The notes under the pieces: generated by a model
Told to the model about the DNA's origin: nothing
Seen by the model: the letters and a program-made list of their open reading frames with translations, nothing else
Database searches by the model: none
Made by a program: the position numbers and the translations under genes
In this document: positions 3,441 to 7,300 of the stretch, piece after piece
How positions within the stretch are numbered: position 1 is the first letter of the stretch
How the letters are laid out: every line of letters begins with the position of its first letter
IMG/VR virus record: IMGVR_UViG_3300048591_000242
Coordinates: 128,001 to 192,000 of that record
Length of the DNA: 64,000 bases
Reading direction: 5' to 3' (one strand)
Origin: a virus
Lineage: Duplodnaviria > Caudoviricetes

Positions 3441-3752
3441 GTGGCGATAGATATAATAATCAGAGCCGACAACTGGGAAGAGCTAATTGGTGTCATACAC
3501 TGCATCAATTATGCCGATATACCCAGTGACGTATCTATAAGAATGGCCATTTGTAAAGATCTGGAAAAAACCATGAAGGCTTTGTTAAAGGCTAGTGTGG
3601 ATATAGATGATGTATTGTTATCTCATCCAGAAATAGCGATACATTTTAACGAACTTTGGGATAATATACAAGGCTACGGCTATGATATTTCGGATATCAA
3701 GATAATTGATAATTCCGGATCAATTTTAATGCGCATGGGGAGAATTAAATGA
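3441..3752 (+). CDS. hypothetical protein
   Basis: 103-aa ORF, GTG start, ATGA overlap with the next gene. Confidence 0.7.
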   Translation: MAIDIIIRADNWEELIGVIHCINYADIPSDVSIRMAICKDLEKTMKALLKASVDIDDVLLSHPEIAIHFNELWDNIQGYGYDISDIKIIDNSGSILMRMGRIK

Positions 3753-4168
3753 GTCCAATTAGTTTAGAAAACCTTAAGATAGGTGATAACATAATGTTCA
3801 CTACCTATGGTCCGGTTGCAGGTAAGGTAGAGTTTGCAGGTAAGGTAATAGGTTTATCTACAGCAGAATGGTTGCCTGTTACAACTACAGCCCCAACGGA
3901 TCACGTTAACATATATCGTGATTTACCTACTGAGGTACAAGAGTATGTAGAGGATAACTATAGCTCCTATAACTACATAGCAGTTAAAACCATAGACGGC
4001 GTGTTTTACATAGGAGAGCCGTGGATAGTTCTAGGTACACTTGTTTTGGATAATCCGGCCACAGCCACCGTTACCGTTTCTGATTATCGAGAATCTGATA
4101 CAAACCTTTTAACTCAGTTGCTATTATCTAATGGTTTTAAGGTAACTAAAGTAATTGTAAATAATTAA
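3749..4168 (+). CDS. conserved Chimalliviridae core hypothetical protein (phiKZ gp49-like position)
   Basis: Motifs FTTY, H..IY..LP and IG..WI; position just before the polymerase. Confidence 0.7.
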   Translation: MSPISLENLKIGDNIMFTTYGPVAGKVEFAGKVIGLSTAEWLPVTTTAPTDHVNIYRDLPTEVQEYVEDNYSSYNYIAVKTIDGVFYIGEPWIVLGTLVLDNPATATVTVSDYRESDTNLLTQLLLSNGFKVTKVIVNN

Positions 4169-4186
4169 ACGATTTGTAATATATAT

Positions 4187-4490
4187 GTGGAGTTATACTT
4201 TCACGCTGGTGTTTTCGGAGTAGGTCCTCGCTACTCATGTTTCCGACTAAAATCGGTCGCCCCTTTACCAGCGATCTTCTCGCATTCGGGTTTTTTACGT
4301 TTTCTCCCGATACTCCACGTACACGCCAGACCTTCGTGGTTGGGGATCTGGCGTGTACACCTATTTTAAAGGTTTGCGCCCTCGTGCGATACAACGGACT
4401 ACTCTCCGGTTGTTTCTTATGGGCGTTTTGCTAAAGGCTACCATCTATCACTTTACCCTAGCAAAGTGCGGATGGTAGCCTTTTTCTCTA
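4187..4490. ncRNA. candidate structured non-coding RNA 1
   Basis: GC-rich intergenic segment with nested helices: gtggagt/actccac (4187/4318), cgctggt/accagcg, tcggg/cccga, 12-bp gtacacgccaga/tctggcgtgtac, acaac-gga/tcc-gttgt, and a 13-bp terminal hairpin (4433-4483) followed by a T run. Confidence 0.6.
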
Positions 4491-4555
4491 TGCCATATTT
4501 TTTAACAACAAAATATCATTTATATGAGAACAACATCTTAATATAGGAGGATAAC

Positions 4556-4771
4556 ATGAAGATATTTTCAGTAAGAAACATAGTTATACTTCTAAATACA
4601 GTGATAGGTCCAATAACTGATGCCTGCGTAATAGCGCATTGCAACAGCTATATAAACTGGGGGGACTCTAAGCGACACCGATGTCGCGTGGGTCGGAGTA
4701 ACTATAGACGCAGACTGGCACCAGATCGCCACGTGCCATACCGAAGGTGCATCGGGTGTACGTATGGGTAG
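4556..4771 (+). CDS. possible 71-aa peptide overlapping structured RNA 2
   Basis: Strong GGAGG RBS; hydrophobic N-terminal half and Arg/Cys-rich C-terminal half. The 3' part may simply be read through structured RNA. Confidence 0.4.
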   Translation: MKIFSVRNIVILLNTVIGPITDACVIAHCNSYINWGDSKRHRCRVGRSNYRRRLAPDRHVPYRRCIGCTYG

Positions 4772-4820
4772 AATTGCCCCAGTAGATGAAAGTCCTGTTC
4801 TCCGTTACGTAGTCCCGCCA
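4620..4820 (+). ncRNA. candidate structured non-coding RNA 2
   Basis: Helices tgcg/cgca, actgggg/ccccagt, gggact/agtccc, gcgaca-ccga-tgtcgc, cggag(t)aac/gttctccg and tggcac/gtgcca; purine-rich loops; followed by a hairpin at 4840-4868. Confidence 0.55.
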
Positions 4821-4839
4821 AAAAACCTTTATAAGCATG

Positions 4840-4880
4840 GATACTCCTAGGCTGATCCTAGGAGTATCGTACTATGCTGT
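4840..4880 (+). terminator. hairpin plus TATGCTGT motif
   Basis: gatactcctagg-ctgat-cctaggagtatc, then tatgctgt at 4873-4880. Confidence 0.65.
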
Positions 4881-4960
4881 ATTTCCTAATTTAAAACAAT
4901 ATTAGGTAATTCTTTGTAATCAATGCACGTGTCGTTAAAGGACATAATGGGGAAGAACCA

Positions 4961-7292
4961 ATGAGCAATAACCCTTTCATAAGAGATCCGAAGAAATACA
5001 TAAGGGATCTTGATATAATTTCTAACTACTGTGAGAATATGGCGCAGTACTTAGCCATTTCTACTGGGGATAAATACGAAGACGTTCTATTGTGGGTAAA
5101 ATCAAACATCAAACCAGTAGAGCCTAAACTTAAAGTATTAGCCAGAAGAGACGGAGCTGATAGAAAAAAGGAAGTACAGGAATTATCCAAATATTTAAAT
5201 GAGGTATCTCATACTAACAGACTACTAGGGCCTAACCTAATAGTCTATGATAATCCTAAAAAGAATAAGTCTTTTATTTCTGAATTTATAGATAAGGGAT
5301 TAGAGAGGAGATCCATTGTAAAGAAGAAGGGACAGAAGGCTGAGATGGAAGGGGATATGGAAACAGCTATTTTCTGTGACAATCAACAGGGTAGAATAAA
5401 GATTCTAAACAACTCTATCTCGGGCGCACATGCGTCGCCACATAACCCTATTTATAATGCTACAGCGCATACTACACTTACCTCCGTATGTAGGTGTGCT
5501 ACTAGTTATTCTAATGCGGTAGTAGAAAAACTACTTACCGGCAACCGACATTATTATAGTCCGGAAATAGCTCTGGCTGACTTAGCCTCTATTATCAGAA
5601 TAACTGATTTAGATAAGCTAGAGAAAGCAATGGCTAAGTACTCCATAGTGCCACCTACAAAGGAATATGCTTTAGCGCATATTCTAGAGTCTTGTAATTT
5701 GTACTGGAGAAGTCCTACTGGAAACAGACAGCTATCTGAGTTTATAAACGCTATGTCTGACATAGAACTATCTGCTATAACTTACGTATCTGACCTTAAA
5801 GGTATAAGAGATACCAATGATGCCTTCATGCGCAGATTCATAGGCTGTTTGGTGGAAAAGGCCACAGTAGGTATAGATGAGCCTGAGAAGTATCACAAAG
5901 CCGCTGGTGGAGATTTACTGGCTATGGTAGGGTTAGTTATGTCTGAGGAGCTAAAGGGCCGTACGGTGGATAGAATGGCTAAAGAGGACCCAGAGTACTA
6001 CCGACTATATGGTGCTACTATAAAACAGATACTGGATAGCCTGTCCCTGTACACTGACTTTATAGATGCATTCTTGCGTACCGACAACATGCCGCCAGCA
6101 ATTCACACCATAACCTCATCGCTACGACGAGTGGCTATAGTCTCTGACACCGATAGTACTATTTTTACTACTGAAAACTGGGTAAGATGGTACTTAGGAA
6201 AAAATGAGTTTAATGTTAAAGCTATGTCGGTAGCTGGAGCTATAGCTTATATAGACTCACAGGTACTAGCTCATACATTGGCCATGTTATCTAGACATTT
6301 GGGGGTAGGAGACGATCAGTTATTTAGGTTAGCTATGAAGTCTGAGTTCTATCAGCCGGTACTGGGTGTAACTAACATGTCAAAACATTATTTCTCATAC
6401 ATACAGGCATGTGAAGGTAATGTATACTCAGAATTAAAGTTTGATACTAAGGGGGTAAACCTTAAAAACTCCAGGCTGCCTGGGGTAATTAAAACTGAAC
6501 TTAATAACTACATAAGGTGGATTATGGATTCGGTTATGTCTGAAACCAAACCTACCTTACGTGACGTATTAAGAATACCGGCTACTATAGCCCACGATAT
6601 ATCAGCTAGTCTTTCTTCTGGGGATACTAGCTATTTATCACACATGCAAATAAAACCTAAGTCTTCCTATAAGGGAGATAATCCACCAGCATGGGTACAG
6701 TATCAGCTATGGACTAAGGTATTTGCTCCGGTATATGGGCCAGCAGACCCACCCCCGTATTCTGCAGTAAAGGTACCAGTTATTATAGATAGTAGAGCTA
6801 AGATGGATAGTTGGGCTGAGACTTTAGATCCGGCTATGTCTAAAAGACTACGTGAAATGGTAATGGGTGAATACACGTACACTAGTGTTGATGGCTTAGT
6901 TGAACTAAGAGATGGAGATGTGGTTTTATTCATAACCAGAAAAGGAGGTATTTGCGGGGATATGGGTAAGCTGTATACCTATAGAGGTCAAGCCAAGTCT
7001 ATTGATTTAAGTAGCTTAGGATTAAGTGAAGTATCGTCCTCTACCAGAATATGGGAGTATACTGGTTCCACTAGAGAAAGCTTTACTAGTTTTATGGTAC
7101 CTGTATCTAGATTACGTGATGGTAAAATGCCTGTAGAAATAGCGCGTATTGTAGATTCTGCTAAAATTGAAGACGAAATGTTAGCTGGATTTATGATAGC
7201 TCTTGAGACTACTGGGTTCTACATACGTAACTCTGGTAAAACCAGATTACTGTCTAAAGAAATAGATATTGATATTTACAAGGAGAACAAAA

Positions 7293-7300
<8 letters not shown>
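4961..7300 (+). CDS. family B DNA polymerase, palm/thumb part of the split polymerase (phiKZ gp50-like)
   Basis: Motif B IKILNNSISG and motif C SDTDSTIF; partner exonuclease/motif A gene at 51909-53567. Confidence 0.9.

What the first reader, a model, noticed from the sequence alone, without database searches (positions are those of the whole stretch)
4311..4770. The two structured elements carry collinear complementary blocks: possible antisense pair or RNA switch
Seen: acgtacac (4317-4324) pairs with gtgtacgt (4756-4763), accttcg (4330-4336) with cgaaggt (4742-4748), and gatctgg (4345-4351) with ccagatc (4721-4727); tactc/gggta extends the duplex. The blocks lie in correct antiparallel order over about 45 nt and cover the 12-bp hairpin of element 1. 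Inference: element 1 is a trans antisense regulator of the peptide mRNA (type I toxin-antitoxin-like), the two form alternative folds, or they are diverged inverted paralogs. Single 7-mers occur by chance; the collinearity is the signal.
Basis: partly seen in the sequence, partly recalled or inferred. Interest (0 to 1): 0.72.

Follow-up and report, generated by a model that had tools for sequence, protein, structure and literature searches.

The report
Complementary hairpin remnants upstream of phage polymerase
Two neighbouring folded, non-coding stretches in front of a jumbo phage's DNA polymerase gene do carry matching complementary blocks beyond chance, but folding energies and related phages argue against a working antisense pair, so this is most likely a decayed inverted copy of a terminator-type hairpin.

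Summary
As a bare duplex the match is not random. A scan of all 60-nt windows puts the best hybrid (-51.6 kcal/mol) on the proposed site. Shuffles give -38.4 +/- 3.3 (0 of 120 as good) and 60 natural segments of the same genome reach at best -46.1.

Once each RNA's own fold is counted the duplex is not favoured: opening costs are +31.6 and +21.3 against a hybrid of -48.7, net +4.2. Dimer gain is no better than shuffles, and in one transcript the pairs have probability about 0. The two relatives that have both units (polymerase 73% and 53% identical) show no such complementarity.

The setting is a 790-nt spacer between the SH3DP gene and the divergent family B polymerase of an uncultured nucleus-forming jumbo phage. 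Both elements end in the phiKZ-type terminator (hairpin plus TATGCYGTATTT) on the + strand. The 12-bp hairpin uses the same hairpin vocabulary.

My best reading is a lineage-specific, decayed inverted copy of that hairpin. A functional pairing stays possible at about 0.2. Earlier notes of this scan describe similar polymerase-upstream RNAs in Goslar-like phages.

The parts
3749..4168 (+). SH3DP gene (SH3-fold protein associated with phage DNA polymerases); left border of the spacer
   Evidence: Pfam PF20287, E 1.3e-18
4187..4318 (+). Element 1, 5' domain: multi-helix domain closed by GUGGAGU 4187-4193 / ACUCCAC 4312-4318
   Evidence: MFE and centroid folds agree. The whole element 4185-4495 has z = -8.7 on + and -7.4 on -. 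No ORF there has a gene-like codon score.
4319..4358 (+). Hairpin H1: perfect 12-bp stem GTACACGCCAGA/TCTGGCGTGTAC, extended by a 5-bp G-U-rich apical helix with a UGGU loop. It is a terminator-type hairpin (GTACAC...GTGTAC vocabulary).
   Evidence: I5. Pair probability 0.97-1.0. The same GTACAC..GTGTA[CT] frame occurs in 5 other hairpins of the genome. The apical TTCGTGGTTGRGG is shared with relative L011, whose basal stem has a different sequence.
4311..4351 (+). Element-1 side of the complementarity: TACTC, ACGTACAC, ACCTTCG, GATCTGG
4433..4500 (+). Terminator T1: 13-bp arms 4433-4445/4471-4483 with an inner helix, then TTTTTCTC and TATGCCATATTT
   Evidence: I3. Motif family. phiKZ terminator motif, hairpin + TTATKYYGT (PMC10914365). 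The same arrangement is seen in the relatives I fetched; the tail is clearest in L011, L013, L023, L025, L026 and L028.
4546..4771 (+). Shine-Dalgarno AGGAGG (4546-4551) and a 71-codon ORF (4556-4771). Coding status is doubtful beyond the first ~15 codons.
   Evidence: No homologue among 1.84 billion representatives. Codon score -0.20 for codons 16-71, against 0.45 +/- 0.13 and a minimum of -0.07 for real genes. Hydrophobic stretch at residues 9-27 and pI 10.3.
4600..4835 (+). Element 2, G+C-rich part (51-56% G+C in a 40% genome), moderately structured
   Evidence: z = -2.9 on + and -3.6 on -; MFE and centroid differ.
4719..4770 (+). Element-2 side of the complementarity: CCAGATC, CGAAGGT, GTGTACGT, GGGTA. 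GTGTAC-GTATGG resembles the 3' arm plus tail of the terminator motif.
4833..4884 (+). Terminator T2: perfect 12-bp hairpin 4840-4851/4857-4868, then GTAC and TATGCTGTATTT
   Evidence: I4. One of 14 genome sites of the motif; each hairpin-bearing site flanked by genes lies downstream of a same-strand gene, mostly 35-48 nt after its stop.
4961..7300 (+). Divergent family B DNA polymerase; right border of the spacer
   Evidence: Pfam PF20286, E 1.8e-190. Under 40% identical to cultured chimalliviruses.

Best explanation
The spacer between the SH3DP gene and the DNA polymerase gene of this nucleus-forming jumbo phage holds two tandem + strand units. Each ends in the phage's own terminator signal.

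Element 1 is a strongly folded non-coding RNA. It is either a long 3' UTR of the SH3DP operon or a separate small RNA. Its internal 12-bp hairpin H1 is itself a terminator-type hairpin. Element 2 is a lineage-specific cassette with a ribosome-binding site, a doubtful small ORF and a G+C-rich tail.

The collinear complementary blocks are real. They are best read as a partly decayed inverted copy of H1, with its loop and 5' flank, inside the expanded tail of element 2. That would be a by-product of the duplication and shuffling of hairpin modules seen elsewhere in this genome.

Shown: the match, its non-randomness, the strand signals, the energies, and the absence in relatives. Inferred: the duplication origin and the lack of function.
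For: - The match is non-random. Homology can explain that without any function.
- Aligned as the reverse complement, 31 of the 35 bases of 4317-4351 find a match, with 8 extra bases in element 2. The similarity extends weakly over 4302-4397 vs 4678-4773.
- The copy has lost its own palindrome, as a decaying hairpin would (sequence).
- H1 uses the genome-wide GTACAC...GTGTA[CT] hairpin frame.
- Near-identical hairpin modules occur at distant loci (genome positions 9731 and 105656), so modules are copied in this genome.
- Both units end in hairpin + TATGCYGTATTT. This motif occurs at 14 sites, at the ends of same-strand genes, including convergent junctions. It matches the phiKZ terminator motif, hairpin + TTATKYYGT (PMC10914365).
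- The spacer is a length hot spot among relatives, 166-797 nt.
- MAFFT places no L011 sequence opposite window ~4787-4935, and L011 has no comparable complement to its own hairpin.
- The duplex is not predicted to form: net +4.2 kcal/mol, +10.1 when forced in one transcript, and no better than shuffles.
- L011 and L025 show no complementarity between their units (z +0.9 and -0.5).
Against: - There is no direct evidence of a duplication event. BLAST finds no other H1 copy in the genome.
- The perfect 7-8-nt blocks separated by strongly diverged gaps with indels could equally reflect selection on the pairing.
- GTGTAC-GTATGG in element 2 also reads as a + strand terminator 3' half, which blurs the orientation of the supposed copy.
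- The closest relative has only 73% polymerase identity, so loss of the match there does not exclude a young, lineage-specific function.
- Predicted energies for 300-700-nt RNAs carry errors of several kcal/mol.
Confidence: 0.45

Rival explanations
1. Functional RNA-RNA pairing on the + strand. Element 2 RNA, or the downstream part of a read-through transcript, would pair with 4311-4351. One version has it capturing the nascent 5' arm and loop of H1 before the 3' arm is made, which would change termination at H1. Another has the duplex creating a processing site near the end of the small ORF, in the manner of a type I toxin-antitoxin pair.
For: - The bare hybrid is an outlier against shuffles and against natural sequences.
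- About 29 of the ~38 pairs fall on the 5' arm and apical part of H1, which are single-stranded during transcription.
- CAGAUC of element 2 sits in an 11-nt hairpin loop.
- The ORF has a strong Shine-Dalgarno sequence, a hydrophobic N-terminal stretch (Kyte-Doolittle 2.02 over 19 residues) and a basic tail.
- Its start region is predicted to be sequestered in a local hairpin.
Against: - The net interaction energy is not favourable and is no better than shuffles. The pairs have probability about 0 in a co-transcript.
- The pairing site in element 1 lies inside a hairpin with pair probability about 1, whose only open loop is UGGU.
- Relatives L011 and L025 have no corresponding complementarity.
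- The target lies at codons 56-70, not at the ribosome-binding site.
- The ORF has no homologue and codon use unlike this phage's genes. Its positional counterpart in L011 is a 28-residue acidic peptide.
Confidence: 0.2
2. Chance. Two G+C-rich, compositionally mirrored segments (element 1 pyrimidine-rich, element 2 purine-rich on the + strand) share a common hairpin word and happen to align.
For: - Ordinary local alignment gives P up to 0.19.
- Block 1 overlaps the genome-wide GTACAC/GTGTAC hairpin word.
- Two 7-mers anywhere in the pair have P = 0.12-0.29.
- The statistic was chosen after the fact, by a reader who scanned 64 kb.
- There is no conservation.
Against: - 0/120 shuffles and 0/60 natural segments reach the observed hybrid energy, and the scan picks exactly this site.
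- Conditional on block 1, the two further collinear blocks have P = 0.0004-0.013.
- Dinucleotide shuffles already keep the mirrored composition.
Confidence: 0.27
3. DNA-level inverted repeat. The two ~50-bp arms would flank a 365-bp segment holding T1, an A+T-rich region and the ORF start, and would serve as recombination or inversion sites, or as paired protein-binding sites.
For: - Imperfect inverted repeat with the arms 368 nt apart.
- The segment between them carries a terminator and the start signals of the small ORF.
Against: - The arms are short interrupted blocks (8, 7 and 7 nt), unlike known crossover sites.
- H1, one of the arms, exists in L011 without a partner arm.
- I made no search for a recombinase gene, and the near-identical contig L029 stops at 4429, so no inverted form could be seen.
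Confidence: 0.05

Closest known systems
[quoted passage not shown]
   Same: Short gene-free transcription units, or long untranslated ends, in a nucleus-forming jumbo phage. They are strongly folded, end at the family's conserved terminator, and have unknown function. One such sRNA is conserved by position across genera. Earlier notes of this scan report a similar folded RNA before the polymerase gene of Goslar-like phages.
   Different: There is no sequence or Rfam match. Expression is untested here. Element 1 is longer (about 300 nt) and contains an internal terminator-type hairpin. A second unit with a small ORF follows it.
phiKZ conserved intrinsic terminator motif: stem-loop followed by TTAT, 5'-...YTTATKYYGT-3' (PMC10914365)
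   Same: T1 and T2 are hairpins followed by TATGCCATATTT and TATGCTGTATTT. The genome has 14 such sites at the ends of same-strand genes.
   Different: The stems here are not the CCYCCCC/GGGRRGG type. Many use GTACAC...GTGTA[CT] with outer GCATAAG/CTTATGC pairing.
Type I toxin-antitoxin pairs with a trans-encoded antitoxin RNA (tisB/istR-1, shoB/ohsC, zor/orz); from my own knowledge of the family
   Same: A small ORF with a hydrophobic stretch and a basic tail, a structured start region, and a neighbouring non-coding RNA with about 20 nt or more of interrupted complementarity.
   Different: Both RNAs lie on the same strand. The complementarity lies at the ORF's 3' end rather than at the 5' UTR or ribosome standby site. 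The antitoxin-side sequence is locked in a 17-bp hairpin. The pair is not conserved, and the ORF has no homologue and atypical codon use.
Promoter/stem-loop cassettes (PeSLs) that shuffle small genes in T4-type phages (Arbiol et al. 2010, recalled from memory, not read here)
   Same: A repeated regulatory stem-loop signal brackets a small, lineage-specific ORF in a length-variable spot. The junction CTATGCCATATTT / CTATGCTGTATTT is duplicated on both sides of element 2 (D3).
   Different: Here the repeated signal is a terminator rather than a promoter plus stem-loop. Mobility is inferred only from the variable spacer and from copied hairpins.

Membership tests
Type I toxin-antitoxin system | Small, membrane-active hydrophobic toxin peptide that is truly translated | tested here: inconclusive
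   The ORF has 71 codons, a Shine-Dalgarno sequence and a hydrophobic stretch (KD19 2.02). Against this, the codon score is -0.20 for codons 16-71 and there is no homologue. Toxicity is not testable here.
Type I toxin-antitoxin system | Antitoxin RNA that base-pairs with the toxin mRNA so as to block translation or trigger decay, with an accessible pairing site | tested here: not met
   Complementarity exists, but the net energy is +4.2 kcal/mol after opening costs and no better than shuffles. The site lies at codons 56-70 rather than at the ribosome-binding site, and the element-1 side is inside a hairpin with pair probability about 1.
Type I toxin-antitoxin system | Toxin ORF and complementary RNA kept together in related genomes | tested here: not met
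   L011 has a 28-residue acidic ORF and no complementarity. L025 has no such ORF and no complementarity.
Bistable RNA switch (two mutually exclusive folds) | Two alternative structures of similar free energy within one transcript | tested here: not met
   In 4185-4880 the long-range pairs have probability about 0. Enforcing the three blocks costs +10.1 kcal/mol.
Chimallivirus (phiKZ-type) intrinsic terminator | Stem-loop directly followed by a TTAT-containing tail (YTTATKYYGT), on the coding strand downstream of genes | tested here: met
   T1 is 4433-4483 plus TTTTTCTCTATGCCATATTT. T2 is 4840-4868 plus GTACTATGCTGTATTT. The genome has 14 such sites; each hairpin-bearing site flanked by genes lies downstream of a same-strand gene, mostly 35-48 nt after its stop. 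Motif as published in PMC10914365. Termination itself was not measured.
Chimallivirus intergenic or UTR-derived non-coding RNA | Gene-free stretch bounded by a transcription start and a terminator, folded more stably than chance, recurring at the same genomic position in relatives | tested here: inconclusive
   Fold z = -8.7. Relatives give -7.6, -5.9 and -5.4. The positional analogue is a terminator-ended spacer in the related contigs I fetched. No ORF there looks like a gene. The start site and expression could not be tested.
Any Rfam family | Covariance-model score at or above the gathering threshold | tested here: not met
   0 hits at gathering scores over the whole window. Only sub-threshold chance hits in 4100-5000. 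No tRNA or tmRNA.

The most novel reading that the evidence does not exclude
The complementarity would be a working, lineage-specific riboregulator in a nucleus-forming jumbo phage. The RNA of element 2 would capture the nascent 5' arm and loop of hairpin H1, or the reverse. That would tune read-through from the SH3DP operon toward the DNA polymerase gene, or control a small toxic peptide. It would be a same-strand, trans-encoded antisense pair built from terminator modules.
Probability: 0.15. Interest if true: 0.6.

Novelty: new member of a known kind. Interest (0 to 1): 0.3.

Why it matters
If the pairing worked, it would be a first example of RNA-RNA regulation placed before the replication genes of a chimallivirus. 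RNA biology in this group has only begun to be mapped. As it stands, the useful results are more modest:

- The SH3DP-polymerase spacer of these marine jumbo phages is a fast-changing slot for folded non-coding units.
- The phiKZ-type terminator signal (hairpin plus TATGCYGTATTT) is conserved in a very distant uncultured relative and gives strand and unit boundaries without RNA data.
- Copied hairpin modules can produce striking but probably idle complementarity.

Tried and rejected
- Rfam at gathering scores and by E-value: nothing. tRNA/tmRNA scan: none.
- blastn of the spacer against 50,697 phage records: no match.
- Polymerase-based locus searches in viral and metagenome contigs: no relative.
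- Pattern CGCC-N5-TTCGTGGTTGRGG in viral contigs: 8 chance hits in G+C-rich contigs.
- Block pattern with variable gaps in metagenome and viral contigs: 16 hits, none in a recognisable relative; most lie in one G+C-rich, apparently protein-coding bacterial sequence.
- Public sequencing runs: none was listed for 3700-5400, and no RNA holder was listed. Expression could therefore not be examined.
- RNAduplex on whole 300-nt elements gives a meaningless global duplex. I replaced it with window scans.
- Near-identical contig L029 has one SNP (4409 G>C), ends at 4429, and is uninformative for the blocks.
- BLAST of both elements against the relatives' loci: nothing significant. MAFFT/RNAalifold of the two hairpins is not structure-aware and has too few sequences.
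- A - strand protein gene under element 1 (82-codon ORF; an ORF was also called there by the gene callers on L029 and on the P0003 contig): rejected. Its codon score is 0.05, and the motif shared with L011 falls in different reading frames.
- Divergently transcribed inverted paralogs: rejected, because both terminator motifs are on the + strand.
- Generic sigma-70 promoter and terminator scan: uninformative for this phage.

Full report
**Setting**

The window is part of a 202-kb virus record with terminal repeats. The finding lies in a 790-nt gene-free spacer. On its left is a gene for the SH3-fold protein that accompanies phage DNA polymerases (3749-4168, PF20287). On its right is a divergent family B DNA polymerase (4961-7300, PF20286, E 1.8e-190). 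The polymerase is less than 40% identical to those of cultured phiKZ-like, nucleus-forming jumbo phages. Related metagenomic contigs carry chimallin and tubulin genes nearby. The spacer has two G+C-rich islands (about 4200-4480 and 4600-4830, 50-56% G+C) in a 40% G+C genome.

**Observation**

The blocks cover the perfect 12-bp hairpin H1, 4319-4330/4347-4358. I tested the match in several ways.

- A block-chain statistic against dinucleotide shuffles gives 7/2000 (k=6) and 0/2000 (k=7).
- This statistic was tailored to the observation, so I also scanned every 60 x 60-nt window pair of the two elements for hybrid energy. The minimum, -51.6 kcal/mol, falls exactly on the proposed site. Shuffles give -38.4 +/- 3.3 and none of 120 reaches it.
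- Natural controls agree. Element 1 against ten other terminator-bearing regions gives -32.5 to -40.8. Against 50 random genomic segments it gives -36.3 +/- 3.7, with a minimum of -46.1.
- Block 1 overlaps a hairpin word common in this genome (see below). Conditional on it, the two further collinear 7-mers still have P = 0.0004-0.013, and the duplex without the anchor has P = 0.007.
- Plain local alignment is less impressed, with P from 0.003 to 0.19 depending on the scoring.

I conclude that the complementarity is real and probably not chance. Its full extent is about 38 possible pairs over about 55 nt.

**Strand and units**

A motif search showed that TATGC[CT][AGT]T[AT]TT occurs 14 times in the genome. 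About 0.4 per strand is my rough expectation for the narrower form of the pattern. It is nearly always directly 3' of a 10-12-bp hairpin. Each hairpin-bearing site that is flanked by genes lies downstream of a same-strand gene, mostly 35-48 nt after its stop. This includes junctions where the next gene is on the other strand. So it is a gene-end signal, not a promoter.

The motif matches the conserved terminator of phiKZ, a stem-loop followed by TTAT (YTTATKYYGT), reported for 61 terminators (PMC10914365). Similar terminator motifs occur in 201phi2-1 (PMC11512511).

The spacer holds two such signals on the + strand. T1 is 4433-4483 followed by TTTTTCTCTATGCCATATTT. T2 is 4840-4868 followed by GTACTATGCTGTATTT. 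Both elements are therefore + strand units. Element 1 runs from the SH3DP stop to T1. The distance from stop to motif is 321 nt, against the usual ~40. Element 2 runs from T1 to T2. This rules out divergently transcribed paralogs.

**Element 1**

It folds far better than shuffles (z = -8.7). It has no gene-like ORF on either strand and no Rfam match. All eight distinct relatives I could fetch have a spacer after the SH3DP gene that ends in a terminator hairpin and T-run. Their polymerase identity is 73-51% and their spacers are 166-797 nt. A TATGCC-type tail follows in L011, L013, L023 and L026, and a TGCCGT/TGCTGT-type tail in L025 and L028. The three I folded have z = -7.6, -5.9 and -5.4.

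In the closest relative, L011, the counterpart of H1 keeps the apical TTCGTGGTTGRGG (a 5-bp helix with a UGGU loop) on a basal stem of different sequence. It is followed by a TTATGG tail.

H1 itself uses the GTACAC...GTGTA[CT] frame seen in five other hairpins in the genome, four of them followed by a TATGC-type tail. I therefore read H1 as a terminator-type hairpin, possibly a leaky or former terminator, inside element 1. Earlier notes of this scan describe a comparable folded RNA before the polymerase gene of Goslar-like phages. I did not re-test those.

**Element 2**

It starts with an A+T-rich stretch, a strong Shine-Dalgarno sequence and a 71-codon ORF (4556-4771). L011 has a Shine-Dalgarno sequence and a 28-codon ORF with a similar start (ATGAATATTTCAG against ATGAAGATATTTTCAG) at the matching place.

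The ORF has no homologue among 1.84 billion representative proteins. Its G+C-rich codons 16-71 score -0.20, against 0.45 +/- 0.13 (minimum -0.07) for this phage's genes. It does have a hydrophobic stretch and a basic tail. I leave its coding status open.

The part that carries the complementary blocks (4719-4770) lies in a tail of element 2 that aligns only weakly with L011. MAFFT places no L011 sequence opposite window ~4787-4935.

**Does the duplex form?**

- Opening 4311-4353 in element 1 costs +31.6 kcal/mol. Opening 4719-4770 in element 2 costs +21.3. The hybrid is -48.7, so the net is +4.2.
- Co-folding the two full RNAs gains -8.5. That is no better than shuffled partners (-6.8 +/- 3.8, 15/60), and the best dimer does not use the proposed pairs.
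- The excised 61- and 66-nt pieces do form the duplex, but the gain of -6.5 is again ordinary (81/300).
- In a single 4185-4880 transcript the pairs have probability about 0 and H1 about 1. Enforcing the blocks costs +10.1.
- The element-1 side has no open loop apart from UGGU.

**Conservation**

L011 and L025, the two relatives with a second unit, show no block chain and no unusual hybrid energy (z = +0.9 and -0.5). A near-identical 1-kb contig adds only one SNP, outside the blocks. Searches for closer relatives failed.

**Interpretation**

A match that is non-random, not conserved, thermodynamically idle and confined to a lineage-specific tail is most simply common descent. That means an inverted, partly decayed copy of H1 with its loop and 5' flank.

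- 31 of the 35 bases of 4317-4351 match after reverse complementing.
- The copy has lost its own palindrome.
- Near-identical hairpin modules at distant loci show that such modules are copied in this genome.

I give this 0.45. Pure chance keeps about 0.27, because of the after-the-fact choice of statistic and the shared hairpin word. A functional pairing keeps about 0.2. Its most coherent form is capture of the nascent 5' arm and loop of H1 by element 2 RNA, since about 29 of the 38 pairs fall there. A DNA-level role of the inverted repeat keeps about 0.05.

**Comparison and novelty**

The units belong with the intergenic and UTR-derived non-coding RNAs mapped in phiKZ and 201phi2-1. The type I toxin-antitoxin label fails two of three testable features. 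The switch label fails its energy test. This is a new member of a known kind, with an unproven and rather unlikely regulatory twist.

Noticed in passing
window 4489-4500, 4873-4884, 10296, 57033 (+) and 45607 (-); 14 sites genome-wide: Genome-wide gene-end signal: a 10-12-bp hairpin, often with outer GCATAAG/CTTATGC pairing, followed by T(T)ATGCTGTATTT, mostly 35-48 nt after stop codons. It matches the published phiKZ terminator tail TTATKYYGT, so this motif is conserved in a very distant marine relative.
   Followed up: yes
window 4176-4186, - strand: ATATATATTAC, an early-promoter-like word, occurs 13 times on the + strand of the genome and once on the - strand. The single - strand copy sits at the SH3DP/element-1 junction and points back into the SH3DP gene. 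It could be chance (about 0.8 expected per strand) or an antisense promoter.
   Followed up: partly
window 4333-4345; L011 1951-1963: The apical sequence TTCGTGGTTGRGG of hairpin H1 (a 5-bp G-U-rich helix with a UGGU loop) is shared with the closest relative, while the basal stems differ. On the - strand it falls in different reading frames in the two phages, so it is conserved as RNA or DNA rather than as protein.
   Followed up: partly
L025 2207-3003; L026 2396-3003: The same spacer in two relatives is also expanded. L025 has two tandem folded units, each with its own terminator (z -5.9 each). L026 has a 51% G+C, 600-nt insert with 59- and 73-codon ORFs. The SH3DP-polymerase gap ranges from 166 to 797 nt and looks like an insertion hot spot.
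   Followed up: partly
window 4488-4505 and 4872-4889: Direct repeat CTATGCCATATTTTTTAA / CTATGCTGTATTTCCTAA brackets element 2. The cassette looks as if it was inserted at, or duplicated, a terminator junction.
   Followed up: partly
window 4546-4591: The Shine-Dalgarno sequence and start codon of the 71-codon ORF are predicted to be sequestered in a local hairpin (AGGAG with CUUCU, UAACAUG with CAUAGUUA).
   Followed up: no
window 4409 (L029 position 987): This is the only difference from a near-identical contig in another sample. G>C would break a pair in the 4388-4416 hairpin of element 1. It may be a sequencing error.
   Followed up: no
genome positions 9731 and 105656 (outside the window): Two nearly identical terminator hairpins (GTACACTAGTACCC...GGGTACTAGTGTAT) lie at distant loci, which shows that hairpin modules are copied within the genome.
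   Followed up: no
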